From a virus, in UHGV virus genome UHGV-0110025: a stretch of 30,952 bases of DNA; one strand, given 5' to 3'. The notes under the pieces were generated by a model. The model was not told where the DNA came from. It did not search any database and was given only the letters and a program-made list of their open reading frames with translations. The position numbers and the translations under genes are program-made. This document shows, in pieces, positions 1 to 20,532 of the stretch. Every line of letters begins with the position of its first letter. Position 1 is the stretch's first letter.

Positions 1-49
1 CATATAAAACAATTAGTTAATGCAATTTTTAATGCAGTGAATTGCAGCG

Positions 50-1099
50 TTACGCAACCTCTGCCGCCACGTTGTCGCCAATACACAGTGACAACGGATT
101 CAAGGTGACAGCTTGTTCAAGATGGTCAGGAGCAAAGTGCGCATACTTCATTGTTTCACGAATATTTGCGTGACCGAGTATCTTCTGGAGTACAAGGATA
201 TTGCCGCCATTCATCATAAAATGCGCGCCAAAGGTGTGACGTAAAACGTGCGTTTTCTGCCCTTCAGTCAATTCAATGTTTGTGAGTTTGAGCATCTTCT
301 TAAAGTCCTGATAGCAGGGCTTGAACATTCTTCCCTGACGTTCGGACAACTCGTCATACAGCCATTTAGGAATCGGAACCGTGCGATTCTTCTTACCTTT
401 GGTTTTGGTGAAAGTCAGCTTGCAGGGGGAAAGTTGGGGACGTGTAAGTCTCTCAGCTTCTCCCCATCGTGCGCCAGTAGCCAGGCACACCTTAACAATC
501 ATAGTAAGATTTTCTTTGCCATATTGTTCACAGGCTCGGAACAGCTCCGGGAGCTGAGACAAAGTTAGCCAGGACATTTCTTTCTCAGCTTCTTTGAATA
601 CACGAATCCCGTCCAGTGGATTGGGTAAACTCCATTCACCTAATCGCCGCAGTTCATTGAACACAGCTTCGAGGTATTGCTGTTCGCGATTGACAGTTAT
701 AGGTTTGGCGATCCATTTCGCCGGGTCTTTGTGATAGCCGTTGTCTATTTCGCCACGTAATCGACGGTCACGGTAATGAGCCCAATCTTTAGCGGTAAGA
801 CGAGATGCAATAGGGTCGCCCAACCCGTTACATACAATTTGAAGCTTAGCTAACCGCGACTTACTGGCGACCAACGCCTGTCCATGTAAATTATGCCAAA
901 GCTGGATAATCTCACTTAAGCGTCGGCGGTCTTCTTTCTTGCCGAGCCACGGCTTATCTTCACTCTCGCTTTTCGTAAATGCTTCGAATGCCTCGGCCTC
1001 ACCTTTGGTATTGAATTGCCGACGTATTCGCCGCCCTTCTCGCCCATTAGGATAAAGCTCACATAACCATTTGCCATTTTTTTGCTTACTTATAGTCAT
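50..1099 (-). CDS. int: P2-type tyrosine integrase. The ORF track starts at 1147, but the probable true start is the internal Met at 1099 (MTISKQKNGKW...), matching the N-terminus of P2-family Int.
   Basis: N-terminus (MTISKQKNGKWLCELYPNGREGRRIRRQFNTKGEAEAFE) is characteristic of P2 Int. C-terminal catalytic region has HxxR (VLRHTFGAHF) and a terminal Tyr region (ETMKYAHF). It sits at the prophage end, co-oriented with the repressor. Confidence 0.9.
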   Translation of the reverse strand: MTISKQKNGKWLCELYPNGREGRRIRRQFNTKGEAEAFEAFTKSESEDKPWLGKKEDRRRLSEIIQLWHNLHGQALVASKSRLAKLQIVCNGLGDPIASRLTAKDWAHYRDRRLRGEIDNGYHKDPAKWIAKPITVNREQQYLEAVFNELRRLGEWSLPNPLDGIRVFKEAEKEMSWLTLSQLPELFRACEQYGKENLTMIVKVCLATGARWGEAERLTRPQLSPCKLTFTKTKGKKNRTVPIPKWLYDELSERQGRMFKPCYQDFKKMLKLTNIELTEGQKTHVLRHTFGAHFMMNGGNILVLQKILGHANIRETMKYAHFAPDHLEQAVTLNPLSLCIGDNVAAEVA

Positions 1100-1121
1100 A
1101 ATGTCACCGAGGCAACTCTTA

Positions 1122-1460
1122 TCATTCGCAAAGTGCTGTCGCAGCATCCATTACGGGATCCAAAGGAATTTTTACTCCTTCATAATCCGGGCTATCTTTC
1201 CAAACAGTATCAATATCGCTCCCCTCAAGCTTTCCAGACTTTACACCATCAATAGCAAACCCATTTAATGGGTATCGGTCATCTGTTGCTTTGTCGTACA
1301 CAAAGGCATATCTACCATTAACACAAGACACCGTAGCTTTTTCAAAAGTTAACGGCCAATCATCACCAAACTTAGCACCGTCTAAATCCTGTGTTTTTTC
1401 AGCGGCTGATGCACCGAAAGAAAGTGAAAGAAATAAAGCTAAAAAAAGCTTACGTTTCAT
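1122..1460 (-). CDS. Small secreted protein (about 113 aa) with a cleavable Sec signal peptide (MKRKLFLALFLSLSFGASA|AEKT). Moron inserted between int and C. Start taken at MKRK, not the longer ORF-track start, which overlaps C.
   Basis: Positive n-region, hydrophobic h-region and an ASA-AE cleavage motif. Local GC is lower than in the flanking int and C genes. P2 itself has no gene at this position. Confidence 0.6.
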   Translation of the reverse strand: MKRKLFLALFLSLSFGASAAEKTQDLDGAKFGDDWPLTFEKATVSCVNGRYAFVYDKATDDRYPLNGFAIDGVKSGKLEGSDIDTVWKDSPDYEGVKIPLDPVMDAATALCE

Positions 1461-1468
1461 AATGTCCC

Positions 1469-2305
1469 TTATACGTGTTTTTCCAATGTGAAAATTACAG
1501 CACCTACTGGTGTGATATCTGTAATGCTGCATTCAAACTCGGCAGACTTATTTGACAACCTGACTTTTCCGCCGGGAAGACGAATTACATCAAAAACATC
1601 AAGAGCGCCGTCAATATCAATTAACCAACGCCCATTACTTATGTTCGAAGCAGAACGGTTGACAAGCCAAGAGGCTCCAACACCTTCAACAAAAATCAAC
1701 TCCTCTGAGTCAGAGGGTATCATCGAGGGGTCTGGATGCCATTCGCCAGCGTCCTTAAGCTCACCCGCTTCAAGGCGAAATTTTTTAATTGAAAAACTTG
1801 ATGTGACCATTTCTCTGTTAGTTCGCATTTGCCCCTTGCCGGTTGCTAACCATTCCAGCGAAACACCAGTATCAAGGGCACAAGTAACAACTACATCGCC
1901 TGGGAAAAAATCACGCCGAACCCATGTGCTAATTGTTCCAGATGATATACCGAGTAAATCACCCAGCTCCTTTTGCATAGAAAAACCGTAAGCATCAAGG
2001 ATGCGTCTCAGAACAGGTTTACCACCTGAAGCCATGACCTTTTCATAAAGCTCTTTGCCCTTCAGGGTCGCACGTGAAGAGTTTGCTTTTGCAAGCTCCC
2101 CTGTCACTAACCATCCGATATCTGCGCCCGTTTCAATAGCACATTCAACAAATACATTGCCCGGAACGCTATCTCTGGCAAGCCAACTGCTTATGTTGTT
2201 GGCATAAATACCAAGTTTTTCGCCAAGTTCTTTTTGCGAGCTAAGTCCATAAGCCGAAAGGATTCTTTCGATAGCCGGAGCCGCACCATCTCCAAATTTA
2301 GCCAT
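1469..2305 (-). CDS. Immunity repressor (C/CI-type) carrying two tandem N-terminal CI-type helix-turn-helix domains and a C-terminal oligomerisation-like domain.
   Basis: There is an internal repeat: RILSAYGLSSQKELGEKLGI..SSWLARDSVPGNVFVECAIETGADIGWLVTGE versus RILDAYGFSMQKELGDLLGISSGTISTWVRRDFFPGDVVVTCALDTGVSLEWLATGK. Position and leftward orientation with int match P2/186 C or CI. No Ser-Lys S24 autocleavage motif is evident. Confidence 0.8.
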   Translation of the reverse strand: MAKFGDGAAPAIERILSAYGLSSQKELGEKLGIYANNISSWLARDSVPGNVFVECAIETGADIGWLVTGELAKANSSRATLKGKELYEKVMASGGKPVLRRILDAYGFSMQKELGDLLGISSGTISTWVRRDFFPGDVVVTCALDTGVSLEWLATGKGQMRTNREMVTSSFSIKKFRLEAGELKDAGEWHPDPSMIPSDSEELIFVEGVGASWLVNRSASNISNGRWLIDIDGALDVFDVIRLPGGKVRLSNKSAEFECSITDITPVGAVIFTLEKHV

Positions 2306-4365: not shown

Positions 4366-6588
4366 TTGGCTGTTCAATTCGCTTATCCGTGGAATGCTCC
4401 ACGATCGGCTATAGCCAGCCCATACCTTACTTATAAGCAACAGCATCGCCGCGACCGTATGTTCGCGGCGATGCTGCATGCTAAAAAGGTGCTTTCTCTC
4501 CAGCCCGACTGCGTGCGGTTAGATGTTTATCGCACTGCGGCAGTGCTGGAGCAAAATCAGGGCATTCAACGAGCCAATGCCTTTTTGATCAGCTTCTGCA
4601 AAAAGGCATTGCCGCGTCTTGAATTGGTCGCAAAAAAATACGAATGCGCGGGTATCAACAGCAAGGTATCAACCTCTGTTTTTGGAAGTCATTTTGATAC
4701 CCAGCTTATGCAATATCTGGCGTCACGCATGGTTAATATGGTCGCCCGATATAACCGCCTCCCGGATATGTCGCGCGCTGATGTTGACCTGTTGGCCGCC
4801 GATATTGCTAATTTCATTCGTGGTGAACTTGCCAACATTAATGACCACGGATTCGGCGAGCTTAAAACGCTGTACACCTGGTATAATCGTGCTGGCTTTA
4901 TTTCCCTCCAGTTCAACGTTATCCCCCCCCATTGGGATCGGGTTGCAAAAAAATATGTTGGCGCGGATGAAATCGCACCGGCTATCGCCAAGATGTTTAA
5001 CGATGGGTGGTGGCGTGGTCGTTTGCGCCGGGTTGCAGCTACGTGGCGCGAACACCTGCAAATTGCAGTCGGCAACGTCAGCAAGAAAAAAAACACCTAT
5101 GCGAGTAAAAACTGCGTGACTGACTGGCGTGAACAAAAGCGCCGAACTCGTGAATTTCTCAAAGGTCTGGATCTCGAAGACGAAGACGGCAACCGTATCA
5201 GCCTGATTGAAAAATATGATGGCTCAGTTGCTAACCCTGCGATTCGCCGCTGTGAGCTCATGACTCGCATTCGTGGGTTTGAAAACATCTGTAATGAGCT
5301 CGGTTATGTCGGTGAGTTTTACACTCTGACCGCGCCGTCGAAATATCACGCCACGACTAAAGCCGGTTACCGTAACAGCAAATGGAGCGGTGCCTGCCCG
5401 GCTGACACGCAAAACTATCTAACTGATATCTGGGCGCGTATCCGTGCCAAACTGCATCGGGAAGATGTCCGTATTTTCGGTATTCGTGTCGCCGAGCCCC
5501 ATCACGACGGTACTCCACACTGGCACATGCTGATGTTCATGCTGCCGGAAGATGTTGAATATGTTCGCTCCATCGTCCGTAAATACGCGTGGAAAGAAGA
5601 CCGCCGCGAACTGAAAAGCGATAAGGCAAAAAAAGCACGTTTCCACGCCGAGTCCATTGACCCGGAGAAAGGCAGCGCAACCGGCTATGTTGCTAAATAC
5701 ATATCAAAAAATATCGACGGTTATGCTCTCGATGGTGAAACCGATAATGAAAGCGGTGAACTGCTGAAAGAGACAGCCCCCGCCGTTTCAGCATGGGCTT
5801 CGCGCTGGCACATCCGTCAGTTTCAGTTTATCGGTGGTGCGCCGGTGACGGTTTACCGTGAGTTGCGTCGCCTCGCTGATACCGAAACCGCGCACGGACT
5901 GAGCGTTGAGTTTGCCGCCGTCCATGATGCCGCCGACGCTGGTGACTGGGCTGGTTATGTTAATGCGCAGGGTGGACCGTTTGTCCGTCGCGATGATTTA
6001 CAGGTGCGCACACTGTATGAACCACGTACCGAGCTTAATCAGTACGGTGAGGAAACGGTATGTATTAAGGGGGTCTACGATTCCTCCATAGGTGCAGGTA
6101 GCCCGATTTTAACCCGGCTCACTCAGTGGAAGATTGTTCCGAAGCATGCTGTTGATTTGGCCGTTGACCTTCAGGACGGCAAAGCCGTCCCTCGGAGTTC
6201 TGTCAATAACTGTACGGGAAGTGAAAGCGATCCACCGATACTGGATTTAACAAAACCACAGAGTCGGCGCGAAAGACGAGAGCTGACCAACCGACTCAGG
6301 AAGCAAAAACCAGCAATACGGCGAAAATTCGTCCACGGAATGGATGAGCAAAACGCAGCTATAGCGAAAACTATCGACGAGATACATCTGACAACCAGCA
6401 TCACAATCAGCCGGGGCGAAGCCCTGCACCTGATGGCAGGTGGGAAAAGCTGTTTTGATGGCAAATGGCTAAGGGGAACATCCAAAGGGGAGATATTTTC
6501 CACTGTCCCATCGAACCAAGCTAAAGCTAGTAAAATCCTCAATCGTGTTGCAGCGTTGGTAGAAGCATCAAAGTTAATAGATGATTAA
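4366..6588 (+). CDS. A: Replication initiation endonuclease gpA (rolling-circle HUH nickase).
   Basis: HUH motif HHDGTPHWHMLMF and catalytic tyrosine motif GYVAKYISKN. Size of 740 aa is close to the 761 aa of P2 A. Last early-operon gene. The C-terminal ~150 aa are lower GC and divergent. Confidence 0.9.
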   Translation: MAVQFAYPWNAPRSAIASPYLTYKQQHRRDRMFAAMLHAKKVLSLQPDCVRLDVYRTAAVLEQNQGIQRANAFLISFCKKALPRLELVAKKYECAGINSKVSTSVFGSHFDTQLMQYLASRMVNMVARYNRLPDMSRADVDLLAADIANFIRGELANINDHGFGELKTLYTWYNRAGFISLQFNVIPPHWDRVAKKYVGADEIAPAIAKMFNDGWWRGRLRRVAATWREHLQIAVGNVSKKKNTYASKNCVTDWREQKRRTREFLKGLDLEDEDGNRISLIEKYDGSVANPAIRRCELMTRIRGFENICNELGYVGEFYTLTAPSKYHATTKAGYRNSKWSGACPADTQNYLTDIWARIRAKLHREDVRIFGIRVAEPHHDGTPHWHMLMFMLPEDVEYVRSIVRKYAWKEDRRELKSDKAKKARFHAESIDPEKGSATGYVAKYISKNIDGYALDGETDNESGELLKETAPAVSAWASRWHIRQFQFIGGAPVTVYRELRRLADTETAHGLSVEFAAVHDAADAGDWAGYVNAQGGPFVRRDDLQVRTLYEPRTELNQYGEETVCIKGVYDSSIGAGSPILTRLTQWKIVPKHAVDLAVDLQDGKAVPRSSVNNCTGSESDPPILDLTKPQSRRERRELTNRLRKQKPAIRRKFVHGMDEQNAAIAKTIDEIHLTTSITISRGEALHLMAGGKSCFDGKWLRGTSKGEIFSTVPSNQAKASKILNRVAALVEASKLIDD

Positions 6589-6662
6589 TTTACATCCATA
6601 TCATGCACATACAATACCTGCATGATTCACTTTTTCTCTTCCCATCATTTGCTAATACGTGA

Positions 6663-6682
6663 TACTGTACAAATATACAGTT
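6663..6682 (+). promoter_or_regulatory. LexA (SOS) box TACTGTACAAATATACAGTT (CTGT-N8-ACAG), overlapping a putative promoter (-35 TTGCTA 6649-6654).
   Basis: Perfect CTGT-N8-ACAG palindrome with an AT-rich spacer, 20 bp upstream of a small ORF with an SD (gggaggg). Position is analogous to the LexA-controlled tum promoter of coliphage 186 at the right end downstream of gene A. Confidence 0.6.
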
Positions 6683-6702
6683 ATCATATTGGGAGGGATT
6701 TC

Positions 6703-6888
6703 ATGGTTGGGGAACATTTCAGCCGAACGCAGCAAAAGTGGGCTTGTGTGCAATTCATTGCCGAGATATCTCTGGTTGCAAACTGCAAGCCAGCAGACTT
6801 AAAGCTTGCGCTTACTCTCATTGCTGATCTGGCAAACAGCGAAAACAACGAAGAACCAGAAAATGAAGTCTTTTATAAGGCTGAATAG
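6703..6888 (+). CDS. Small SOS-controlled ORF (61 aa from the MVGEHFS start). Candidate Tum-like antirepressor or SOS-induced small protein.
   Basis: SD gggaggg sits 5 nt upstream of the ATG, immediately downstream of the LexA box. It has an acidic C-terminus. The antirepressor assignment is by position only (inference). Confidence 0.4.
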   Translation: MVGEHFSRTQQKWACVQFIAEISLVANCKPADLKLALTLIADLANSENNEEPENEVFYKAE

Positions 6889-6890
6889 GT

Positions 6891-7025
6891 TATGAAAATT
6901 AATCTCACATTGGATAAGAAACAAAAACTAGGCCGACCGGTTATTGATGCCTTTCAATGCGAATTGACCAAGAGGACACTGTCTATTTTTCCGTCAACAT
7001 GTGGTGCCGTCAAGAGAGCACTATG
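6891..7025 (+). CDS. Possible 44-aa micro-ORF (MKINLTLDKKQKLGRPVIDAFQCELTKRTLSIFPSTCGAVKRAL).
   Basis: It starts 2 nt after the preceding stop, and its stop overlaps the next ATG (ctATGAgt). Weak SD and no homology recognised. It is below the ORF-track length cutoff. Confidence 0.2.
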
Positions 7026-7148
7026 AGTGGTGCTGAGTTGATGGAGTTTGATATAGATTCAGATCGCGAGGCGCTTGATGGTATTCTCCAAGAAATCTGG
7101 GAAGACGAGCAGTTGGCGGTAGTTAATGACAGAATGTGCAGACCATAA
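7023..7148 (+). CDS. Possible 41-aa acidic micro-ORF (MSGAELMEFDIDSDREALDGILQEIWEDEQLAVVNDRMCRP). The ORF track gives a longer 63-aa version from 6957.
   Basis: ATGA-overlapped with the upstream micro-ORF. Highly acidic. Speculative. Confidence 0.2.
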   Translation: MSGAELMEFDIDSDREALDGILQEIWEDEQLAVVNDRMCRP

Positions 7149-7196
7149 CCCTATGTCTAGTTGCACGGAGGTTAGAAAAAATGCTGTCCGAATTAG

Positions 7197-7215
7197 CCCT
7201 CTCTCAGAGGGCTAT
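7197..7215. terminator. Perfect 8-bp hairpin agccctct-ctc-agagggct. It is flanked on both sides by the direct repeat aaaaatgctgt (7180-7190 and 7223-7233) and followed by a short T-run.
   Basis: Read directly from the sequence. It lies between the SOS micro-ORF cluster and the cargo operon. It could be a terminator or insulator, or a protein-binding site. Confidence 0.3.
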
Positions 7216-7271
7216 GAATTAAAAATGCTGTTTTTGATATGTTAACCTCTTAACAGTTTCATCTTTAAATC

Positions 7272-7299
7272 TTGTAAAGTAAAACTTTGCGTTTATGAT
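7272..7299 (+). promoter_or_regulatory. Candidate sigma70 promoter for the cargo operon: -35 TTGTAA (7272-7277), 16-nt spacer, -10 TATGAT (7294-7299).
   Basis: Good match to consensus in an AT-rich leader about 50 nt upstream of the 7347 start (SD aaggag). Confidence 0.3.
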
Positions 7300-7346
7300 T
7301 GATAAAAATTAAAAAAGTATGAAGAGGCTGTAAAGGAGTTTTATCA

Positions 7347-7862
7347 ATGCCTGGATTCCAAAATGCACAGCAAAATCAATTTGATGATCATGCTCCAGAA
7401 ATGGAGATAAACTTAATCGTAGATGTTGCTGAGCAGCCCGTAGCCTTTACCTATCAATATAGTGAGCAAATTAGCCACCTTGCACCGCAATGTCCGCCAG
7501 CAGAAGCGATTGAATGTGACAAAGAATGCTGGCGCTTCACTCTCAATCCGATAACGGACAGTTGCTTTTGGCCTCCAAAAAGAAGGGTTCCTGAGAGGGT
7601 TGCCTCAGACAGTCAGCAGGAGTGCTCTATGTGGGCGTTGTCTATGTATGAATCAGAGCGACAAGCTGTAGTCGCTTATTCTGGGCTTTCTAAGTCAGTG
7701 AGAAATATTAAGAAAACAATTGGAGATCACCTTGCAAGAGGCACGGTAGCTTGTGGTGATGGTAGATGTATGCCTCCAAATAGAAAAGGCCATTTTGACT
7801 TTCATCCATATTTAGATACTGAGTTCCCTGATGGCTTTCAGGTAATAAGAGCATTACCATGA
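7347..7862 (+). CDS. Cargo gene 1 (171 aa), Cys/His-rich hypothetical protein. Low GC. First gene of a two-gene operon in the P2 tin/old hotspot position.
   Basis: SD aaggag 8 nt upstream. Cysteine-rich segments (CPPAEAIECDKEC, CGDGRC, HFDFH). GC is clearly below the backbone. No recognised family. Confidence 0.6.
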   Translation: MPGFQNAQQNQFDDHAPEMEINLIVDVAEQPVAFTYQYSEQISHLAPQCPPAEAIECDKECWRFTLNPITDSCFWPPKRRVPERVASDSQQECSMWALSMYESERQAVVAYSGLSKSVRNIKKTIGDHLARGTVACGDGRCMPPNRKGHFDFHPYLDTEFPDGFQVIRALP

Positions 7863-8947
7863 TAAAATTAGATGCTAAAAGAATCACTGCACCGGAGGTC
7901 GGAGATTACTCGTGGTATTCTGACTTGGTGTATTTTGATGGACCACTGATTTGTTTATTTCGAGGAAGTGGCTATAAGGATGCTCTTTATGTTTGGCTTG
8001 ATAATTCAACCAGAGCCAACCGCTGGTGTTTAATACCTGTATCAAGGTCAACTTTAGATTCCTATCTTAATCAAAGAATGAGTCTAAGAGAAATCATACA
8101 ATCAAACGAATATGTTTATATTTGCAATCACTTTGCAGAAACAGGACGAAAAAATTATAGCCGTCTGAGCGTAGATGATTTCCCTGAGGAATATATGCCT
8201 GATGCTGACTCATATTTATATGAAGAAATATGCACCGATGACGCACTATTGTTAAAGCAAGAACGCACATCTAGCTATATGCTAGGACTGGACAACCAGT
8301 TGTTTATAAATGATTTATCAGAAATTCCAAAAATTTTCGAACAATTGTATTCTTTCCACTATGGACTTGCCCACTTGGGCAGAATTTCCATTAGAAATAC
8401 CATGCTGCGATTGATGGGTAGTTGGACTGGTGGATTCTCAGCAGTAAATATTTTCACTGGTTTAAAGAATGTCATTCCTGTCCTGCACCGCCCAGAAGTT
8501 AGCTCACTTCAATATAACTCCCCCGGACATATTGAATTGAACTTGCTTCCTGACTTGGCGCAGAGCGTTCAGGATGTATCTGTTCGTGTTGAAAATGAAT
8601 TTATTTATGACCGTTTAGAGAAAATCTATAAAAACAATTACACATACTTTAAAGATAAAGATCTATCAGGTTTTGATGAGGGTGGAGGAATTGAGTTAAG
8701 GAACATCGACTCTGAAACCACAGAAAATCTTCGTAAGCGTGTTAGAATTTTCTTTAGGTGTTTAGGTTGGAAAACCTATCAAGCGCAGTTTGATATGATC
8801 GGTGCCCATCCCTTGCAGCAGTTACGCGCAGTTATGGCGTATTACAGACGCCTGAAAACATTACGAGAATATATTGTGGCAGATAAATTATTCATTGGTC
8901 ATTCGCGAGTGCCGGTAGAGCAAATTACTGTGAATACTGAAAATTAG
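7859..8947 (+). CDS. Cargo gene 2 (362 aa), hypothetical protein, translationally coupled (ATGA overlap) to gene 1.
   Basis: Its start overlaps the stop of the upstream gene. Long low-GC ORF ending about 118 bp before cos. No recognised catalytic motif. Confidence 0.65.
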   Translation: MIKLDAKRITAPEVGDYSWYSDLVYFDGPLICLFRGSGYKDALYVWLDNSTRANRWCLIPVSRSTLDSYLNQRMSLREIIQSNEYVYICNHFAETGRKNYSRLSVDDFPEEYMPDADSYLYEEICTDDALLLKQERTSSYMLGLDNQLFINDLSEIPKIFEQLYSFHYGLAHLGRISIRNTMLRLMGSWTGGFSAVNIFTGLKNVIPVLHRPEVSSLQYNSPGHIELNLLPDLAQSVQDVSVRVENEFIYDRLEKIYKNNYTYFKDKDLSGFDEGGGIELRNIDSETTENLRKRVRIFFRCLGWKTYQAQFDMIGAHPLQQLRAVMAYYRRLKTLREYIVADKLFIGHSRVPVEQITVNTEN

Positions 8948-9064: not shown

Positions 9065-9200
9065 AAGCGGGTAGGCGTGGCGGGGAAAGCATTGCGCGCC
9101 AGCAGTGATGCGTAATAATAAAAATTATCCTCTGAGCGCGTCGTGATGGCGCTGTCGTGGTCGCTGCTGGTTCGTTGGTGGTCGGGTGTGTTCGTGCGCG
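9065..9200 (+). other. cos: Phage cos/packaging region. Putative 19-nt cohesive-end sequence GGCGTGGCGGGGAAAGCAT (9065-9083) followed by GC-rich terminase recognition sequence.
   Basis: Near-identity to the phage P2 left end as I recall it (GGCGAGGCGGGGAAAGCAC TGCGCGC...TCAGCGCGTCGTGACGGCAC). Here it reads ...GCATTGCGCGCC...TGAGCGCGTCGTGATGGCGC. Location between the end of the early region and portal Q matches P2. ORF-track ORFs 9049-9281 here are spurious. Confidence 0.6.
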
Positions 9201-9311
9201 TGAGACGCATCTGATGCGTGATGGTGGTGTGCATGGAAAAGCCACCAGGAGCAGCGGCTTTACAGGAGTGGCAGGATTCAAACTGCTAATTATGTTTCTA
9301 CTATGATTAAA

Positions 9312-10316
9312 CTAATTTACATGTATGTAGAGTTCACCGTCGCCAGACCAATCGGGACACTCTAAAACAAGCCCAAACTGCTTGAATATTTCATCAATGA
9401 TTATTGTTATCTCCCGAAAATCACCAAAACCTGTAATGTGCTGGTCATTAAACTTCCCATAAAGATTCTGAAAAGCAATGCCTAATTCTGATAATTGATA
9501 TCTTATCTTTGAGTTGGATAGTGTAAGGGATAGCTTTGGATCGTATTCTTTAATATTGATGTTTAGAGAATGGACATAACCCATCGCATAAGCATAAGAG
9601 TTGATGATTAGCCTGATACGTTTTTTTACTTCGAGATACATGTCATTCAGAGAAATATTACCGTACTTATAACCCCAGATGAGTTTTTCAATCTCGTCAG
9701 ATACTTCATTTACAACAGTGTCAAGATTCTCTAAAAATAAATCAATAGTTTCTTGAGGGGCAGACCCCGAAGACATGTAATTAGCGAGATATTCAGACCA
9801 TGCACGCGTGGCTGAGATAAGAAGCGCGCTACCATACTCGTTGACTGTAAAATTTTGGGCTAAGCATGTTAGTAAGTTTTTTTCATGTACGTGCACTAAT
9901 TCATGGTGAATGCGATGGATGACTGCGAGGTATCCTTCTTCTTTCAGTTTTAAGAAGCTACCATCATTGAAAAGCTCAACAAAAAAATCAATCGATAGCA
10001 CAAGGGTATATTCTTCACATAGCCCATCATTGCCAATTTTTGTTACTAACTGCCCGACGGCTGCGCCCTGTTTGCTATTGGTAAATGAACTAGGGGATTT
10101 GTGTTGGTAAGAGGATGTTACCTTTTGAAGAGCTTCACTGAAGTTATAGGAAACAATCACGCATTTTAATTTGGAGATATCAAGATTGAGATTTTTTGTT
10201 AAAGCTCGGATAGCTTCTAGTGTGAAATTACCGATATTATTTGCTTCTTGCTCAGTAGCGAAACCTTCGAGGGTTATTTTAAAATCAGTTTCCAAAATAT
10301 TAATCTCCGCGCCCAT
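9312..10316 (-). CDS. Cargo gene (334 aa), putative zinc metallopeptidase-like protein with an HExxH motif. Low GC. Inserted between cos and Q, co-oriented with the late P-Q transcript.
   Basis: Motif IHRIHHELVHVHEKN (HELVH = HExxH, extra His/Glu nearby, possible third ligand in VNEYG about 20 aa downstream). P2 has only about 100-150 bp between cos and Q, so this is an insertion. Confidence 0.6.
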   Translation of the reverse strand: MGAEINILETDFKITLEGFATEQEANNIGNFTLEAIRALTKNLNLDISKLKCVIVSYNFSEALQKVTSSYQHKSPSSFTNSKQGAAVGQLVTKIGNDGLCEEYTLVLSIDFFVELFNDGSFLKLKEEGYLAVIHRIHHELVHVHEKNLLTCLAQNFTVNEYGSALLISATRAWSEYLANYMSSGSAPQETIDLFLENLDTVVNEVSDEIEKLIWGYKYGNISLNDMYLEVKKRIRLIINSYAYAMGYVHSLNINIKEYDPKLSLTLSNSKIRYQLSELGIAFQNLYGKFNDQHITGFGDFREITIIIDEIFKQFGLVLECPDWSGDGELYIHVN

Positions 10317-10393
10317 TGTTTTGATATTCGATGCACTATAGCTTTCGCAGATTGCATCTTCAATAATGAGCGCAGAGATTGTGGCGGCCTAAG

Positions 10394-11440
10394 TTATTCT
10401 GGGTTGTCGAGGGTGTACTCTTTGAACCTGATGACCTCCATACCGAGCCAGTCGTTTACCTCCCTGAACCTATCCTGCAGGGGTGACAGCTCATTACGCA
10501 CAAATACCTTTGCCACCTTCTCAACGTCACCGAGTGAACCGATATTCTCGGGCTTGCCGCCCATGAGCTGGAACGGTACGCGGTGCGCGTCCATCAGATC
10601 GGCGGCACTGGCCTTCTTGATGTTGAAAAAGTCATCCTTTGTGGCGACCTCGCTCAGTGGCACGATTTTGATGCCGTCCGGTTTTCCGCCGGGAGCGTAG
10701 AAAAACAGGTTCTTAAAGTTGCCGAGCCCTTTTGAGTTGCGCATCGCCTCGCGCAGCGATTCGACGTCGGTCGCGCTCTGCGCCGGGTCAGTCACATACA
10801 TGATGTAACCCGCGTGCGCGCCGTTCTGATAATACTTGCGGCGGAACAGCGTCGCGGATTCATTCAGCCAGGCGGAATTTAGCGCGCTGAGATATTCGGG
10901 CAGGCCGTAAATCTCCTGATTAATGTCGGGCTCCAGCAGGTGAAACACGGTATCAGGCGCGAACTCGTGCGGCTGGGTGAAGTTTTCCACAAACCAGAAA
11001 ATCGAATCGTCGACTCCGCGTCGGGTGTATTTGGCTGGCGAGGCCAGCAGTTTGATTAACTGGCCGGTGACGCTGTGGCGCTGCTCAAGAAAGGCGTTAC
11101 CGAACACCAGATAATCGAGCGCAAAGCGGCTGAAATCCTGACGGGATAACAACGGGTGCGGAATGTAGGTGCTCGCGAGCACGTTACGCTTAACATAAAT
11201 TGGCGAGCTGTGATGCACGGCAGAGCGCAGGCTCTTTGCCAGCCCTGAGAAGCTGACCGGCGGCTCGTACCATTTGCCGTTACTGATGCACTCGACGTAA
11301 TCCAGAATGTCGCGCTTATCGAGTACCGGCACCGGCTCGCCGAAGGTGAACGCTGTCGTTTTTGGCGGTGCGCTGGCGGTCAGTTGTTGTGGTTTGCTGG
11401 CCTTTTGTGCGTTGGCTTTACGGGATTTTTGTTTACCCAT
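10394..11440 (-). CDS. Q: Portal protein gpQ.
   Basis: AFTFGEPVPVLDKRDILDYVECISNGKWYEPPVSFSGLAKSLRSAVHHSSPIYVKRNVL closely matches P2 Q. It is adjacent to cos. Confidence 0.92.
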   Translation of the reverse strand: MGKQKSRKANAQKASKPQQLTASAPPKTTAFTFGEPVPVLDKRDILDYVECISNGKWYEPPVSFSGLAKSLRSAVHHSSPIYVKRNVLASTYIPHPLLSRQDFSRFALDYLVFGNAFLEQRHSVTGQLIKLLASPAKYTRRGVDDSIFWFVENFTQPHEFAPDTVFHLLEPDINQEIYGLPEYLSALNSAWLNESATLFRRKYYQNGAHAGYIMYVTDPAQSATDVESLREAMRNSKGLGNFKNLFFYAPGGKPDGIKIVPLSEVATKDDFFNIKKASAADLMDAHRVPFQLMGGKPENIGSLGDVEKVAKVFVRNELSPLQDRFREVNDWLGMEVIRFKEYTLDNPE

Positions 11441-11441
11441 T

Positions 11442-13211
11442 TTAGTTGAACTCCAGAATAGATTTAGGCTGCATGCCGCTACCGGCAGAAAGCGGTTCGT
11501 TTAACAGGGCGTGCATGGTCGCCCATGCGATATCGGCGTGGCTGGCTTCCTCGGTGCGGCTGGCCTCATAGGTGGCGCTGCGCCCGCTGCTGGTCATGGT
11601 TTTGCGGATGGACATAAACGACTGCGTGACGTCGGTTGCTCCGGCGTCGTACTCCAGACAGCCACGGCGAATGGTGTCTTTCGCCTTGAGTACCATTGCG
11701 GTTTTCATTTCAGGTGTGTAACGGATGCCGCGTGCCGCCGGGTAAAATGAGCGCACCAGCTGGAACACGCCGAGACCGAGGCCGGTTGCGTCAATGCCGA
11801 TGTATTCGACGTTGTATTTCTCGGTCAGCTTGCGGATGCCCTCTGCCTGTGCTGCAAAATCCATGCCCTTCCACTGGTGGCGCTCCAGCATGCGGAACTT
11901 GCCACCAGAGACCACCGGCGGCGCGAGCACGACGCACCCGGCACTGTCGCCGGTGTGTGACGGGTCGTAGCCAATCCAGACAGGACGAGAGCCGAACGGA
12001 TGGTCGGCGAACGGGGCAAAGTCCTCCCATTCCTCCATCACATCGACCATGCAGCGCTGCAGCTCCTCGAACGGGAATACCGACGCTTTATCGTCGACAA
12101 ACTCGCACATAAACAGGTTCTTAAAGTCCTCATCACTGTTTTCGCGTTTGAGCTGGTCGAGGTCGAACAGGGTGCAGCCACCCGCAAGGGCGTCCTCAAT
12201 GGTGACAATCTGCCGCCACTGGCCATCGTCGCAGAGCTGGCCACCGGCGAGCGCGCTGTGACTGATGTCGATTTCGATGCGGTCGGCAATCCGGCTGCGC
12301 CCCTTGTTGAACAGCTCGCCAGACCAGAAGGGGTAAGCGCCGTGCGCCAGCGTGGAAGGTGTCGAAAAATAGGTCGAGCGCAGGTGCTTTTGCGAGGCCA
12401 TGCCCGAGGCGACTTTGCGCAGTTTCTGAAAATTCGGGATCCAGAATATTTCATCGACATACAGATCGCCGTTATGGCTCTGCGCGGTGTTGGAATTGGT
12501 ACCGAGAAAAATCAGTTTTGCGCCGTTGTTACCGATGACAATCGGGTCGCCAGTCAGGTCAACGTCGACCAGTCGCGCAAACTGGATGATGTATTCGCGG
12601 AACACGTAAGCCTGCGTTTTACTGGCTGATAAAAATATCTGGTTATGGCCGGTTTTGAGTGCGCGCAGCAGTGCCTCGCGGGAGAAATAGAATGTCGCGC
12701 CAATCTGGCGGGATTTGAGAATGTCACGAATACGGTGCTCCAGTCCTGCGCGGTACCACTGCAACTGGTACTCGAAAGACTGGTCGAAAAATAATTCCTC
12801 TAGTTTATCGATAGCCTCGTCGCTGAAAAAATTCTTTTTCGGCTTTTTGCGCTCCCCTTTGTTGCGGTTGGCGACGTTGGGGTTAAGGTCGGCTTCGTTG
12901 CCGGTCTGGCTGTAGCGGTTGACTCGCGCCAACCGTTCAATCTGCCGTCCGAGCAGGTCAATCTCTTTGAAATCACCCCCTGTCTTTTGCGGCTTGGCGA
13001 TGAGCTGAATCAGCCTAGCCTCAAGGCTGCTTTCAACGCGGGAAATCGGCGCGATGCCGTCCCAGCCGTCGCGCTGCTTCCAGCTCTGCACGGTCGGGCG
13101 CTTGACCTGCAGCATTTCGGCAATCTGTGGCACGGAAAAACCCTGCCAGTAAAGCAGCGATGCCTGCCGTCGCGGGTCATGCAACAAGGTTGTATCGGTG
13201 GAAATGGTCAT
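11442..13211 (-). CDS. P: Terminase large subunit (ATPase/nuclease) gpP.
   Basis: N-terminus PRRQASLLYWQGFSVPQIAEMLQVKRPTVQSWKQRDGWD is the P2 gpP signature. 589 aa. Divergent from O as in P2. Confidence 0.92.
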   Translation of the reverse strand: MTISTDTTLLHDPRRQASLLYWQGFSVPQIAEMLQVKRPTVQSWKQRDGWDGIAPISRVESSLEARLIQLIAKPQKTGGDFKEIDLLGRQIERLARVNRYSQTGNEADLNPNVANRNKGERKKPKKNFFSDEAIDKLEELFFDQSFEYQLQWYRAGLEHRIRDILKSRQIGATFYFSREALLRALKTGHNQIFLSASKTQAYVFREYIIQFARLVDVDLTGDPIVIGNNGAKLIFLGTNSNTAQSHNGDLYVDEIFWIPNFQKLRKVASGMASQKHLRSTYFSTPSTLAHGAYPFWSGELFNKGRSRIADRIEIDISHSALAGGQLCDDGQWRQIVTIEDALAGGCTLFDLDQLKRENSDEDFKNLFMCEFVDDKASVFPFEELQRCMVDVMEEWEDFAPFADHPFGSRPVWIGYDPSHTGDSAGCVVLAPPVVSGGKFRMLERHQWKGMDFAAQAEGIRKLTEKYNVEYIGIDATGLGLGVFQLVRSFYPAARGIRYTPEMKTAMVLKAKDTIRRGCLEYDAGATDVTQSFMSIRKTMTSSGRSATYEASRTEEASHADIAWATMHALLNEPLSAGSGMQPKSILEFN

Positions 13212-19171: not shown

Positions 19172-19200
19172 AGGCTGGATAAACACCAGCCTTGATTTTA
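19172..19200. terminator. Bidirectional rho-independent terminator-like hairpin (7-bp stem aggctgg / ccagcct, 7-nt loop) with a T-rich tail, between convergent gpS (+) and the HIT gene (-).
   Basis: Inverted repeat read directly from the sequence. T-rich on the plus-strand side. It lies between the two stop codons. Confidence 0.4.
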
Positions 19201-19842
19201 TAGTTTGAAATCTGCGTAATTATCAATAACCTCTAGAACACCGCTGATATTGTTATCTCTGCGCCAATTCCAATTGCCATGTATCAAATTTGCATTAGAA
19301 TAAAGATATCTAAGGAACTGAGATGGTAAGAGTGGTTTGTTGCATAAAAATTCATCATAACTATTACTCATATACCACACATATCCATTTTTAATGTCAA
19401 AACTTAAATTCTCACCTTCAATTTTCTTAAAGTTAATTTCTTTATTTAGAGCATTTTCAAACTCTTGTGTATAATAAACACAGTGTATATGAGCGTGAGA
19501 AATGCACCCTCCTGAACGATCTATATTTTCACCTGCTCCGCTTTCAAAGAAAATTAGAGATCTACCAGATTGGTGGATTATAAATTCATTAAGTTCTCGC
19601 AGAATCTCCTTGCCATTACTCCGGGTATCTCGATCAAGAGCAGCAAAGGAGTTGATATGCCGCTTAGGAATCAGCATCACATGCGAATTATTTAGCGGGC
19701 CAATACTAGGTACAATTAGAAAATCATTTGTTTCTGCAATGATATTTTTCTTGTCATTTACGATTTCATCGTATCCTTTGATAAGGCTAATGCCATTTAT
19801 TTCATCGCATATTCCACAGAACGAATTACAAGAATTATTCAC
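19198..19842 (-). CDS. HIT-family (histidine triad) nucleotide hydrolase/transferase-like protein, 214 aa, GTG start with strong SD. Low-GC cargo.
   Basis: Histidine-triad motif GGCISHAHIHCV (HxHxHxx) with upstream HINT-like elements (CGICDE..., FLIVPSIGPLNNSHVMLIPKRH). SD aggaga 8 nt upstream of GTG. Start overlaps the stop of the upstream membrane-protein gene by 8 nt. Confidence 0.7.
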   Translation of the reverse strand: MNNSCNSFCGICDEINGISLIKGYDEIVNDKKNIIAETNDFLIVPSIGPLNNSHVMLIPKRHINSFAALDRDTRSNGKEILRELNEFIIHQSGRSLIFFESGAGENIDRSGGCISHAHIHCVYYTQEFENALNKEINFKKIEGENLSFDIKNGYVWYMSNSYDEFLCNKPLLPSQFLRYLYSNANLIHGNWNWRRDNNISGVLEVIDNYADFKL

Positions 19843-20356
19843 GTTTATTGTCTCCTGGTTTTTTAGGGAGCAATTTTTCAGCCCAAGATGCGAGTCGGCT
19901 TAGAACTAAGTCTGAAAAATATCCTAATATAAAACAAATCGAGAATGCAATTTTGGTCTTACCATGCCCTTTAATGGAGGATACAAACGTATCCGGAGAT
20001 AATATCGTATAAGAACAAAAAGCCACTAAAGCAGCTAAGAACGGAATAAAAATCCTCCAGTAGAACTTATGGGATTCCCAAGGAAAATTATACTGATTGT
20101 TTTTCCCTCTAGCAGTTACTCTATAAAACCATTTTGCATTATACACCCACCCTCCAAAAAAACCGCCAAGAATAGAAAACAAAGATATTTTATTATTATA
20201 TGACAGCTCAAAAACAAATTGGAAAAGAAAGGCGAGAATGCAACCTATTACAAAAAGAACTATTAAATAAGCAAATTCGAATTTTATTTGTTCACAATCG
20301 TTATTAAAATAAGGCACAACCTCATCATCGCCTAAGGTTTTTTTTCTTTCAGTCAT
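19835..20356 (-). CDS. Small integral membrane protein (about 173 aa from the MTERKK start, four predicted TM helices). First gene of the 2-gene low-GC operon with the HIT gene.
   Basis: Hydrophobic helices (FAYLIVLFVIGCILAFLFQFVF, ISLFSILGGFFGGWVY, WRIFIPFLAALVAFCSYTIL, IAFSICFILGYFSDLVL). SD gaaggtg upstream of the 20356 start. The ORF-track TTG start at 20407 is less likely. Confidence 0.55.
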   Translation of the reverse strand: MTERKKTLGDDEVVPYFNNDCEQIKFEFAYLIVLFVIGCILAFLFQFVFELSYNNKISLFSILGGFFGGWVYNAKWFYRVTARGKNNQYNFPWESHKFYWRIFIPFLAALVAFCSYTILSPDTFVSSIKGHGKTKIAFSICFILGYFSDLVLSRLASWAEKLLPKKPGDNKRE

Positions 20357-20532
20357 TTGCCAAACACCTTCATTTTTTACTGTGAGCCAGGGTAATTGCA
20401 TATTCAACTTGGCTATTCTAATTAATTCTCACAAGATTTCATAGATGTTGAGTAGACCTCTCAGAAGTTGTTTCATTCCTCACAGAATCCATCTCGATTG
20501 CCACTAATCTTGCCGGGCGTCATCCTTCCCAT

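What the first reader, a model, noticed from the sequence alone, without database searches (positions are those of the whole stretch)
9312..10316. HExxH metallopeptidase-like low-GC gene inserted between cos and portal gene Q
P2 has essentially no coding capacity between cos and Q. Here a 334-aa low-GC ORF is inserted, co-oriented with the late P-Q transcript, so it could be expressed late during infection. It also lies next to the constitutive cargo on the other side of cos. The protein carries a clear HExxH motif (IHRIHHELVHVHE), suggesting a zinc-dependent peptidase. Prophage-encoded zinc proteases such as Lit of e14 are classical abortive-infection effectors that cleave translation factors when triggered by an infecting phage. 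A protease at a defence hotspot is therefore a plausible cell-death or exclusion effector. I cannot confirm homology to Lit or any named family from sequence memory.
Basis: partly seen in the sequence, partly recalled or inferred. Interest (0 to 1): 0.7.

Follow-up and report, generated by a model that had tools for sequence, protein, structure and literature searches.

The report
Uncharacterised zinc-protease cargo gene in prophage
A 186/P2-like prophage carries, squeezed between its DNA-packaging site and its portal gene, an extra gene for a previously undescribed zinc-protease-like enzyme; its relatives sit among anti-phage defence genes in many bacteria, so it is a credible but untested candidate immunity gene.

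Summary
A 334-aa ORF (9312-10316, minus strand; the real start is probably the TTG at 10295, giving 327 aa) of low GC lies between cos (9074-9092) and the portal gene (10394-11440) of a 186-like prophage. Phage 186 and most relatives have only about 170 nt there.

The family has no Pfam, NCBIfam or PADLOC model, and its PHROG has unknown function. It is not related to Lit beyond the motif helix.

The gene is dispensable cargo:
- it is present in 26 of 5426 complete E. coli genomes;
- it is independent of the neighbouring PD-T4-10 system;
- it is sometimes frameshifted.

Elsewhere it stands alone in defence islands and Tn7-like cargo, next to restriction-modification (RM), Gabija-like, SMODS/SLATT and TIR genes. 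The same cos-portal slot holds PD-T4-2-like and DndB-like cargo in other prophages.

A defence role is therefore plausible, but it rests on context only. Trigger, substrate and phenotype are unknown.

The parts
9312..10316 (-). Cargo ORF encoding a stand-alone gluzincin-like metallopeptidase. The maximal ORF is 334 aa; the probable real start is the TTG at 10295, giving 327 aa.
9891..9905 (-). Codons of H138-E139-L-V-H142, the HExxH on the active-site helix (helix 126-148 of the model).
   Evidence: E139 and H142 are conserved in 84 of 84 divergent family members and H138 in 83 of 84. The helix assignment comes from the model.
9792..9800 (-). Codons of W173-S174-E175. E175 is the putative third zinc ligand, on the following helix (160-185), 33 residues after H142.
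10335..10363 (-). Sigma-70-like promoter candidate (TTGAAG-17 nt-TATAGT) in the 77-nt spacer between the portal stop and the ORF.
   Evidence: Consensus scan, 9 of 12 matches, not above the shuffle expectation. Both hexamers are invariant in E. coli, Salmonella and Citrobacter copies, but the whole spacer is 91% identical, so this is weak evidence.
10305..10308 (-). GGAG Shine-Dalgarno candidate, 9 nt upstream of the TTG at 10295-10293.
   Evidence: Read directly from the sequence; conserved in alignment A4.
10382..10389 (-). GGCCGCCA, apparently a remnant of the 5' stem of the ancestral tW terminator, left beside the portal stop at the insertion junction.
   Evidence: Comparison with the empty sites of phage 186 and L037 (TAA..AAGCCGCCAGCA.GGCGGCTTTTT). 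Inference.
9237..9260 (-). Homologue of the tW intrinsic terminator (AGCCGC-loop-GTGGCT-TTTT), now downstream of the cargo gene.
   Evidence: Phage 186 annotates tW at 164-187. Alignment A3 shows the hairpin retained, with compensatory stem changes, in the window, PKF8 and Salmonella. Terminator scan hit at 9255-9241.
9074..9092 (+). cos cohesive-end sequence GGCGTGGCGGGGAAAGCAT.
   Evidence: Matches bases 1-19 of 186, PSP3, SEN1 and EtG, which are annotated as cos.
10394..11440 (-). Portal gene (186 W / P2 Q homologue), immediately upstream in the same transcription direction.
   Evidence: Pfam Phage_portal, E 5e-13. Annotated as portal in ON470592 and in RefSeq genomes.
7347..8947 (+). PD-T4-10 A (7347-7862) and B (7859-8947), a separate validated toxin-antitoxin/Abi system on the gpA side of cos. 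It is not part of the finding's gene.
   Evidence: PADLOC PD-T4-10_A E 6.5e-69 and PD-T4-10_B E 3.3e-169. The target gene occurs with other cargo or none at that side.

Best explanation
The ORF encodes a soluble, single-domain zinc metallopeptidase of the gluzincin type. Zinc would be held by H138, H142 and E175, with E139 as the catalytic base. The family has not been described.

It is a horizontally acquired, dispensable cargo gene (a moron). It was inserted at the tW terminator, between the portal gene and cos, on the portal side of the known cos-proximal defence hotspot of P2/186-like prophages.

Most likely it is a one-gene anti-phage or inter-element exclusion factor. It would be made in the lysogen from its own promoter, and also by read-through of the late terminase-portal transcript after induction. 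On infection by another phage it would cleave a host or phage protein needed for phage growth.

Shown: the insertion, the conserved active-site residues, the zincin fold, dispensability, independence from PD-T4-10, and a neighbourhood rich in defence genes.

Inferred: zinc binding, proteolysis, expression in the lysogen, and the defence phenotype. The trigger and the substrate are unknown.
For: Active site and fold:
- In 32 close homologues H137, H138, E139, H142, E145, N147 and W173-S-E175-Y176 are invariant.
- In 84 members at 16% mean identity, E139 and H142 are 100% conserved, H138 and E175 99%, and W173 and A178 at least 93%.
- The model has pLDDT 90.2. It shows a beta-sheet, then the HExxH helix, then the Glu helix.

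Cargo status:
- The gene is low in GC and present in 26 of 5426 complete E. coli genomes.
- It is absent from 78 of 79 related phage contigs, and the one copy there is frameshifted.
- The cargo on the gpA side of cos varies.

Hotspot:
- Rousset 2022 (PMC9122126) and Vassallo 2022 define gpA-gpQ as a defence hotspot.
- In other prophages the same portal-cos slot holds NsnA/PD-T4-2_A-like and DndB/DpdB-like cargo.

Non-phage relatives are stand-alone genes in defence contexts:
- a type I RM island in Psychromonas;
- Tn7-like cargo with SMODS+SLATT_4, AAA+Peptidase_S8 and type I RM;
- Gabija-like AAA_15/21+UvrD, nSTAND-WD40 and TIR;
- CAP12-PCTIR_TIR;
- AbiO, Nhi, SduA, DpdF and DRT reverse transcriptases within 7 kb in nine further loci.

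Two family members fuse the HExxH half to a DUF2971 domain, which PADLOC lists as defence candidate PDC-S31.

Transcription: there is no terminator between the portal gene and the ORF, and tW lies downstream.
Against: - There is no experimental phenotype, and no hit of the protein itself to any PADLOC model.
- Rousset's tables appear to list the gene only as 'hypothetical'. It is not among the systems they tested.
- A position inside the late operon is unusual for an abortive-infection toxin and would also suit a function in the lytic cycle.
- The promoter candidate is no better than chance.
- The neighbourhood evidence has no matched background control.
- Some neighbourhoods (Serratia, Kosakonia) carry T6SS-related genes rather than defence genes.
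- Pseudogenised copies exist.
Confidence: 0.55

Rival explanations
1. It is a phage-benefit gene of the lytic cycle, either counter-defence or host or satellite takeover. It would be transcribed with the late terminase-portal operon. The protease would degrade a host immune or housekeeping protein, or a P4-type satellite protein, to favour the prophage's own burst.
For: It is co-oriented with the portal gene and lies 77 nt downstream, with no intervening terminator, and tW follows it. The promoter candidate is not above chance.
Against: Relatives sit as stand-alone genes in chromosomal defence islands, Tn7-like cargo and integrase or resolvase islets with no phage around them. Among 50,697 phage records the only copy is in one temperate 186-like phage. 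Other cargo at the same slot lies in either orientation, so late co-transcription is not a property of the slot.
Confidence: 0.12
2. It is an accessory enzyme unrelated to phage conflict. Examples would be a stress, fitness or virulence factor, or a toxin or immunity-type protein of inter-bacterial competition, that merely rides in variable islands.
For: The Serratia fonticola copy lies among Hcp/DUF4225 (T6SS-type) genes. The Kosakonia copy lies near a Tlde1-domain gene and a YafO toxin. The Shewanella copy is flanked mostly by housekeeping genes. Many neighbours in nine further loci are ordinary metabolic genes.
Against: The protein has no signal peptide, transmembrane segment or secretion-marker domain in its sequence or model. 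Known defence genes recur in the neighbourhoods of very divergent homologues. It lies in a hotspot where more than a third of tested cargo gave anti-phage activity (PMC9122126).
Confidence: 0.2
3. The zincin-like site is not a peptidase. It would be a metal-dependent hydrolase acting on another substrate (nucleic acid, as in YbeY, or a small molecule), or a non-catalytic metal-binding scaffold.
Confidence: 0.08
4. It is a virion or assembly component, or a head-maturation protease, of this phage lineage.
For: It lies adjacent to the portal gene and is co-oriented with it.
Against: It is absent from phage 186, PSP3 and 78 of 79 related contigs with 76-100% identical portals. It is frameshifted in the one that has it. 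It is present in non-phage islands. Its GC content is foreign to the phage.
Confidence: 0.02

Closest known systems
Lit (e14 prophage cell-death peptidase, MEROPS U49 / Pfam Peptidase_U49)
   Same: Both are prophage-borne, stand-alone, roughly 300-aa cytosolic proteins with an essential HExxH. Even the local motif is alike (ILHHEISHV against RIHHELVHV). Lit is the precedent for a zinc protease acting as an abortive-infection effector.
   Different: No homology is detectable outside the 19-residue motif helix (hhalign probability 13.7%; BLASTP E of at least 15). No Peptidase_U49 hit appears at E up to 1. The genomic site and host element differ. Gol-peptide activation and EF-Tu cleavage were not tested.
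Gluzincin catalytic domains (clan MA(E): M1 aminopeptidases, M9 collagenases, M30 hyicolysin/lugdulysin, M4 thermolysin)
   Different: Sequence identity is 8-13%. There is no GxMEN exopeptidase motif, no propeptide and no signal peptide. The spacing from HExxH to Glu is 32 residues, against 18-19 in M1 and M4. The family signature HExxH[VI]H[DE]...WSEYxA is its own. No Pfam or MEROPS-type model matches.
Cargo of the cos-proximal gpA-gpQ defence hotspot of P2-like prophages (old, tin, PARIS, PD-T4-10, PD-T4-2 and others; Rousset 2022, Vassallo 2022)
   Same: A low-GC, variable, dispensable gene between gpA and gpQ next to cos. In this window it is accompanied by PD-T4-10.
   Different: It lies on the portal side of cos, inside the late operon upstream of tW. 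The classical cargo lies on the gpA side. It has not been validated as a defence gene.
ImmA/IrrE (M78) and CapP-type immune-regulatory metallopeptidases
   Same: These are small HExxH zincins associated with mobile elements and defence operons.
   Different: No Pfam hit. Only weak Foldseek similarity to an IrrE-like phage protein (E 0.28). There is no partner repressor gene next to it in any of the contexts examined.

Membership tests
Gluzincin (HExxH+E) zinc metallopeptidases | HExxH motif on an alpha-helix, conserved among homologues | tested here: met
   H138 is conserved in 83 of 84, and E139 and H142 in 84 of 84. The motif lies in helix 126-148 of the model.
Gluzincin (HExxH+E) zinc metallopeptidases | Third zinc ligand is a Glu on the helix that follows the active-site helix | tested here: met
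   E175 is conserved in 83 of 84 within the WSEYxA motif, in helix 160-185.
Gluzincin (HExxH+E) zinc metallopeptidases | Zincin fold similar to solved members | tested here: met
Gluzincin (HExxH+E) zinc metallopeptidases | Zinc binding and peptide-bond hydrolysis | not testable with these tools
   Needs purified protein.
Lit / Peptidase_U49 | Sequence or profile homology to Lit across the domain | tested here: not met
   No PF10463 hit at E up to 1. hhalign of the 84-sequence profile against Lit gives probability 13.7% over 19 columns only. BLASTP finds nothing.
Lit / Peptidase_U49 | Activation by the phage capsid Gol peptide and cleavage of EF-Tu | not testable with these tools
   Biochemical assay required.
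M1 aminopeptidases | GxMEN exopeptidase motif and HExxH-x18-E spacing | tested here: not met
   The translated sequence has no G-x-M-E-N. The spacing from H142 to E175 is 32 intervening residues.
ImmA/IrrE (Peptidase_M78) | Match to PF06114 and an adjacent HTH repressor substrate | tested here: not met
   No Pfam hit. No conserved HTH neighbour.
PD-T4-10 system | Being a conserved component that co-occurs with PD-T4-10 A/B | tested here: not met
   No PADLOC hit for the ORF. The same gene occurs with different gpA-side cargo, or none, in ON470592, strains 222, PKF8 and JKHS016, and in Salmonella.
P2/186 cos-proximal defence-hotspot cargo | Variable, dispensable gene located between gpA and gpQ next to cos | tested here: met
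   Position. Variability of the slot in 79 related contigs. Hotspot definition in PMC9122126.
P2/186 cos-proximal defence-hotspot cargo | Demonstrated anti-phage activity | not tested
No paper was found for the accessions or the family.
PADLOC candidate PDC-S31 (DUF2971) | Match to the PDC-S31 or DUF2971 models | tested here: not met
   Only the N-terminal domain of two fusion proteins (P0140, P0203) matches. The window protein has no hit.

The most novel reading that the evidence does not exclude
The gene would be the founding member of a widespread family of stand-alone immune zinc proteases. The family has about 354 clusters at 50% identity and spans Proteobacteria, Firmicutes, Acidobacteria and Campylobacterota. 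It is unrelated to Lit. The enzyme would sense infection by itself and abort it by cleaving an essential host or phage protein. The portal-cos gap of P2/186-like phages would then be a distinct cargo slot wired into the late operon.
Probability: 0.3. Interest if true: 0.6.

Novelty: new member of a known kind. Interest (0 to 1): 0.42.

Why it matters
If the protease is an immunity gene, it adds a new single-gene system with a proteolytic effector. That effector class has few characterised examples; Lit is the classic one. It would also give a compact 327-aa enzyme in which sensing and killing must reside in one domain.

The work also shows that the P2/186 defence hotspot extends across cos into the 3' end of the late terminase-portal operon. 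This matters for how prophage cargo is annotated and for when such cargo is expressed.

If the gene has no defence role, it is still an unannotated, conserved zincin family that deserves a model in the family databases.

Tried and rejected
- **Sequence searches.** Pfam, NCBIfam, PADLOC and PDB sequences, by single sequence and by profile, gave nothing for the protein.
- **Foldseek.** The PDB and BFVD libraries gave no significant match. The AFDB libraries were unavailable.
- **Lit homology.** Rejected.
- **Third component of PD-T4-10.** Rejected, because the gene occurs without that system.
- **Virion component.** Rejected on distribution.
- **Wider searches.** A profile search of the 5.8-billion-protein set with the broad alignment returned only close relatives because of the candidate cap. 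A second search with only distant members was needed. The search for related loci with the broad alignment failed for lack of conserved stretches.
- **Invertible switch.** A small resolvase sits next to three non-phage homologues, which suggested a switch. Flanking inverted repeats were found in two loci (27 nt at 78% and 12 nt at 100%) but not in the third. They are within chance, so the idea was not pursued.
- **Literature.** Searches by accession, PHROG id and keywords found no paper on this family.
- **Plasmids.** Only two distant hits, on Firmicutes megaplasmids.

Full report
**1. Observation**

The window carries a 186/PSP3-like member of the Peduoviridae.
- The ORF 9312..10316 on the minus strand (334 aa) is real.
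- Its GC is 0.37-0.42, against 0.55-0.61 for the adjacent portal and terminase genes.
- The cohesive-end sequence GGCGTGGCGGGGAAAGCAT lies at 9074-9092. Window 9074-9248 aligns with bases 1-175 of phages 186, PSP3, SEN1 and EtG, whose records annotate cos there.
- The portal gene is 10394..11440 (-) (Pfam Phage_portal) and the terminase is 11442..13211 (-).

In phage 186 the portal stop lies 177 nt from cos, and that stretch holds only the terminator tW. I fetched 80 related IMG/VR contigs with portals 76-100% identical and measured the distance from portal stop to cos. No cos match was found in one of them. Of the other 79, 64 have 155-179 nt and 15 have 380-4837 nt.

**2. Anatomy of the insertion**

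- On the minus strand the portal stop (TAA, 10396-10394) is followed by GGCCGCCA. This looks like the 5' half of the ancestral tW stem; the empty sites of 186 and L037 read TAA-8 or 9 nt-AAGCCGCC-loop-GGCGGCTTTTT.
- Next comes a 77-nt spacer with a sigma-70-like TTGAAG-17-TATAGT at 10363-10335. It scores 9 of 12, no better than shuffled sequence. It is invariant in E. coli, Salmonella and Citrobacter copies, but these are 91% identical overall.
- Then follow the ORF and a complete tW-like hairpin with a T-run at 9260-9237. The hairpin keeps its pairing through compensatory changes in the window, PKF8 and Salmonella.
- No terminator-like site lies between the portal gene and the ORF. Read-through from the late terminase-portal promoter into the ORF is therefore expected. 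This is an inference from the anatomy and from the annotated 186 transcription unit.
- The true start is probably the TTG at 10295, because GGAG lies 9 nt upstream, homologues begin ME[TP]DF there, RefSeq uses a 327-aa form, and residues 1-7 are disordered in the model.

**3. What the protein is**

It matches no Pfam, NCBIfam or PADLOC model and no PDB sequence. PHROG 11743, of unknown function, covers it end to end. Two other PHROGs cover only the halves. These correspond to frameshifted copies such as L039 and the 113-aa fragments in the protein cluster.

Homologues:
- 78 clusters at 90% identity are all named 'hypothetical'. They come from Enterobacterales plus Shewanella and Psychromonas.
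- An exhaustive profile search found 354 representatives at 50% identity with E up to 1e-3. Most are 310-340 aa and align end to end.

Conservation:
- In 32 close homologues, HHELxHxHExN and WSEYxAN are invariant.
- In 84 members with 16% mean identity, E139 and H142 are conserved in 84 of 84, H138 and E175 in 83 of 84, A178 in 82 of 84 and W173 in 78 of 84.

Structure:
- The AlphaFold2 model is confident (pLDDT 90.2, pTM 0.89). It shows a mixed beta-sheet with helices, then helix 126-148 carrying HExxH, then helix 160-185 carrying E175, then a helical bundle.
- Foldseek finds nothing significant in the PDB. Its best BFVD hit is a metagenomic 'Peptidase' at E 9e-3.

I conclude that the HExxH is a genuine, selectively maintained zincin active site of the HExxH+E type, in a family remote from all solved structures. 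Zinc binding and proteolysis remain inferences.

**4. Cargo, not phage core**

- The gene is in 26 of 5426 complete E. coli genomes. In each of the three loci inspected (and in the window) it lies 77 nt after a 186-like portal gene.
- It holds the same position in many Salmonella genomes and in Citrobacter.
- Among 50,697 phage records it occurs only in vB_EcoM-613R3.
- Across cos, the gpA-side cargo differs. It is PD-T4-10 A/B in the window (PADLOC E 6.5e-69 and 3.3e-169; a validated toxin-antitoxin/Abi system according to Vassallo et al.). It is an unrelated 313-aa protein in strain 222 and 613R3, and only small ORFs in PKF8 and JKHS016. The gene is therefore independent of PD-T4-10.

**5. 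Is it defence?**

Rousset et al. (PMC9122126) and Vassallo et al. define the gpA-gpQ interval as a defence hotspot. Rousset's Table S5 lists WP_001622301, as 'hypothetical', at the end of loci that otherwise match those of strain 222 and JKHS016. This is probably the older accession of this gene, and it is not among the systems they tested.

The portal-cos slot itself carries other low-GC cargo in related prophages, in either orientation:
- NsnA/PD-T4-2_A-like DUF262 proteins with a partner (L098, L100);
- a DndB/DpdB-like protein with a partner (L107);
- unknown pairs (L035, L074, L108);
- a three-gene set (L099);
- a 75-aa ORF in five loci.

Outside phages the homologues are single genes in variable regions:
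- a type I RM island in Psychromonas;
- Tn7-like cargo with AAA+Peptidase_S8, SMODS+SLATT_4 directly upstream, and type I RM downstream;
- Tn7-like cargo with Gabija-like AAA_15/21+UvrD, nSTAND-WD40, TIR and caspase-TIR;
- a Mesorhizobium islet with CAP12-PCTIR_TIR and an AAA_15/21 ATPase;
- islets in Enterobacter and Serratia.

Among 90 neighbours within 7 kb in nine further genomes, PADLOC finds AbiO, Nhi, SduA, DpdF, DRT-type reverse transcriptases and PD-T4-7, besides ordinary metabolic genes. Two family members fuse the HExxH half to a DUF2971 domain that PADLOC lists as candidate PDC-S31.

This is consistent guilt by association, but I had no matched background. The protein itself is in no defence database available here.

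**6. Mechanism**

The best-supported reading is a one-protein immune or exclusion protease. It has no partner gene conserved across contexts, no extra sensor domain, no signal peptide and no membrane segment. Recognition and catalysis would therefore reside in the single zincin domain and its helical extension.

Lit is the functional precedent, but the protein is not a member of the Lit family. Only the 19-residue motif helix aligns (hhalign probability 13.7%).

I rate the steps as follows:
- metallopeptidase fold and active site: about 0.85;
- dispensable cargo: about 0.9;
- defence function: about 0.55;
- a specifically Lit-like abortive mechanism: about 0.25.

Rivals are a late-expressed counter-defence or takeover protease, a non-defence accessory enzyme, and a non-peptidase hydrolase. 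A virion role is essentially excluded.

**7. Novelty and verdict**

The family is undescribed, and no paper was found. It belongs to a well-known enzyme superfamily and sits in a known hotspot, so it is a new member of a known kind rather than a new kind.

Two modestly new points:
- the hotspot extends to the portal side of cos, inside the late operon;
- the family is broad and defence-associated across phyla.

Interest is moderate (0.42). It is a good, cheap candidate for experimental testing.

Noticed in passing
window 7347-8947 (+): PD-T4-10 A (171 aa) and B (362 aa), a published toxin-antitoxin-type abortive-infection system, occupies the gpA side of cos. PADLOC E is 6.5e-69 and 3.3e-169. 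B also has a weak DUF6575 Pfam hit.
   Followed up: partly
window 19198-20407 (-): A second low-GC island (GC 0.33-0.38) holds two overlapping ORFs (214 and 190 aa) on the strand opposite the flanking tail and baseplate genes. This is roughly where P2 carries orf30. Neither has a PADLOC hit, and function is unknown.
   Followed up: partly
L035, L074, L098, L099, L100, L107, L108 (portal stop to cos); also L036, L042, L063, L064, L076: The portal-cos gap is a recurrent cargo slot in related prophages. It holds NsnA/PD-T4-2_A-like DUF262 pairs, a DndB/DpdB-like pair, three unknown two-gene sets, one three-gene set, and a 75-aa ORF (MDNYHITKDGDKWKLQKEGN...) in five loci. The cargo lies in either orientation.
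   Followed up: partly
L006 7042-7614, L014 6116-6685, L031/L032 7094-7867: Three non-phage homologues (Serratia fonticola, Enterobacter ludwigii, Mesorhizobium) each have a divergently transcribed small serine recombinase (Pfam Resolvase) immediately upstream. Inverted repeats flank the gene in two loci (27 nt at 78%; 12 nt at 100%) but not in the third. This could be a mobile two-gene unit or an invertible switch, or it could be chance.
   Followed up: partly
P0140, P0203 (about 590 aa, from the representative library): These are fusion proteins. An N-terminal DUF2971 domain (PADLOC candidate PDC-S31, E 3e-38) is joined to the C-terminal HExxH half of this family.
   Followed up: partly
L030 6515-9026: In a Tn7-like cargo region a distant homologue lies 37 nt downstream of a SMODS + SLATT_4 pair on the same strand. 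It is flanked by AAA+Peptidase_S8 and a type I RM system. Possible operonic linkage was seen only once.
   Followed up: no
L039 7125-8129; also E. coli TW10598 (hit H43) and the 113-aa and 106-aa members of the protein cluster: Frameshifted or split copies of the gene exist. PHROGs 28537 (113 aa) and 30021 (154 aa) appear to be built from such fragments.
   Followed up: partly
window 10382-10389 (-): GGCCGCCA next to the portal stop looks like the orphaned 5' stem of the original tW terminator. This suggests that the cargo entered within or beside the terminator hairpin.
   Followed up: partly
window 1-2305 and 6500-7350: Further low-GC stretches (GC 0.40-0.46) carry unexamined ORFs: 50-1147, 1122-1532 and 1469-2305 on the minus strand, and 6957-7148 on the plus strand. 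None has a significant PADLOC hit.
   Followed up: no
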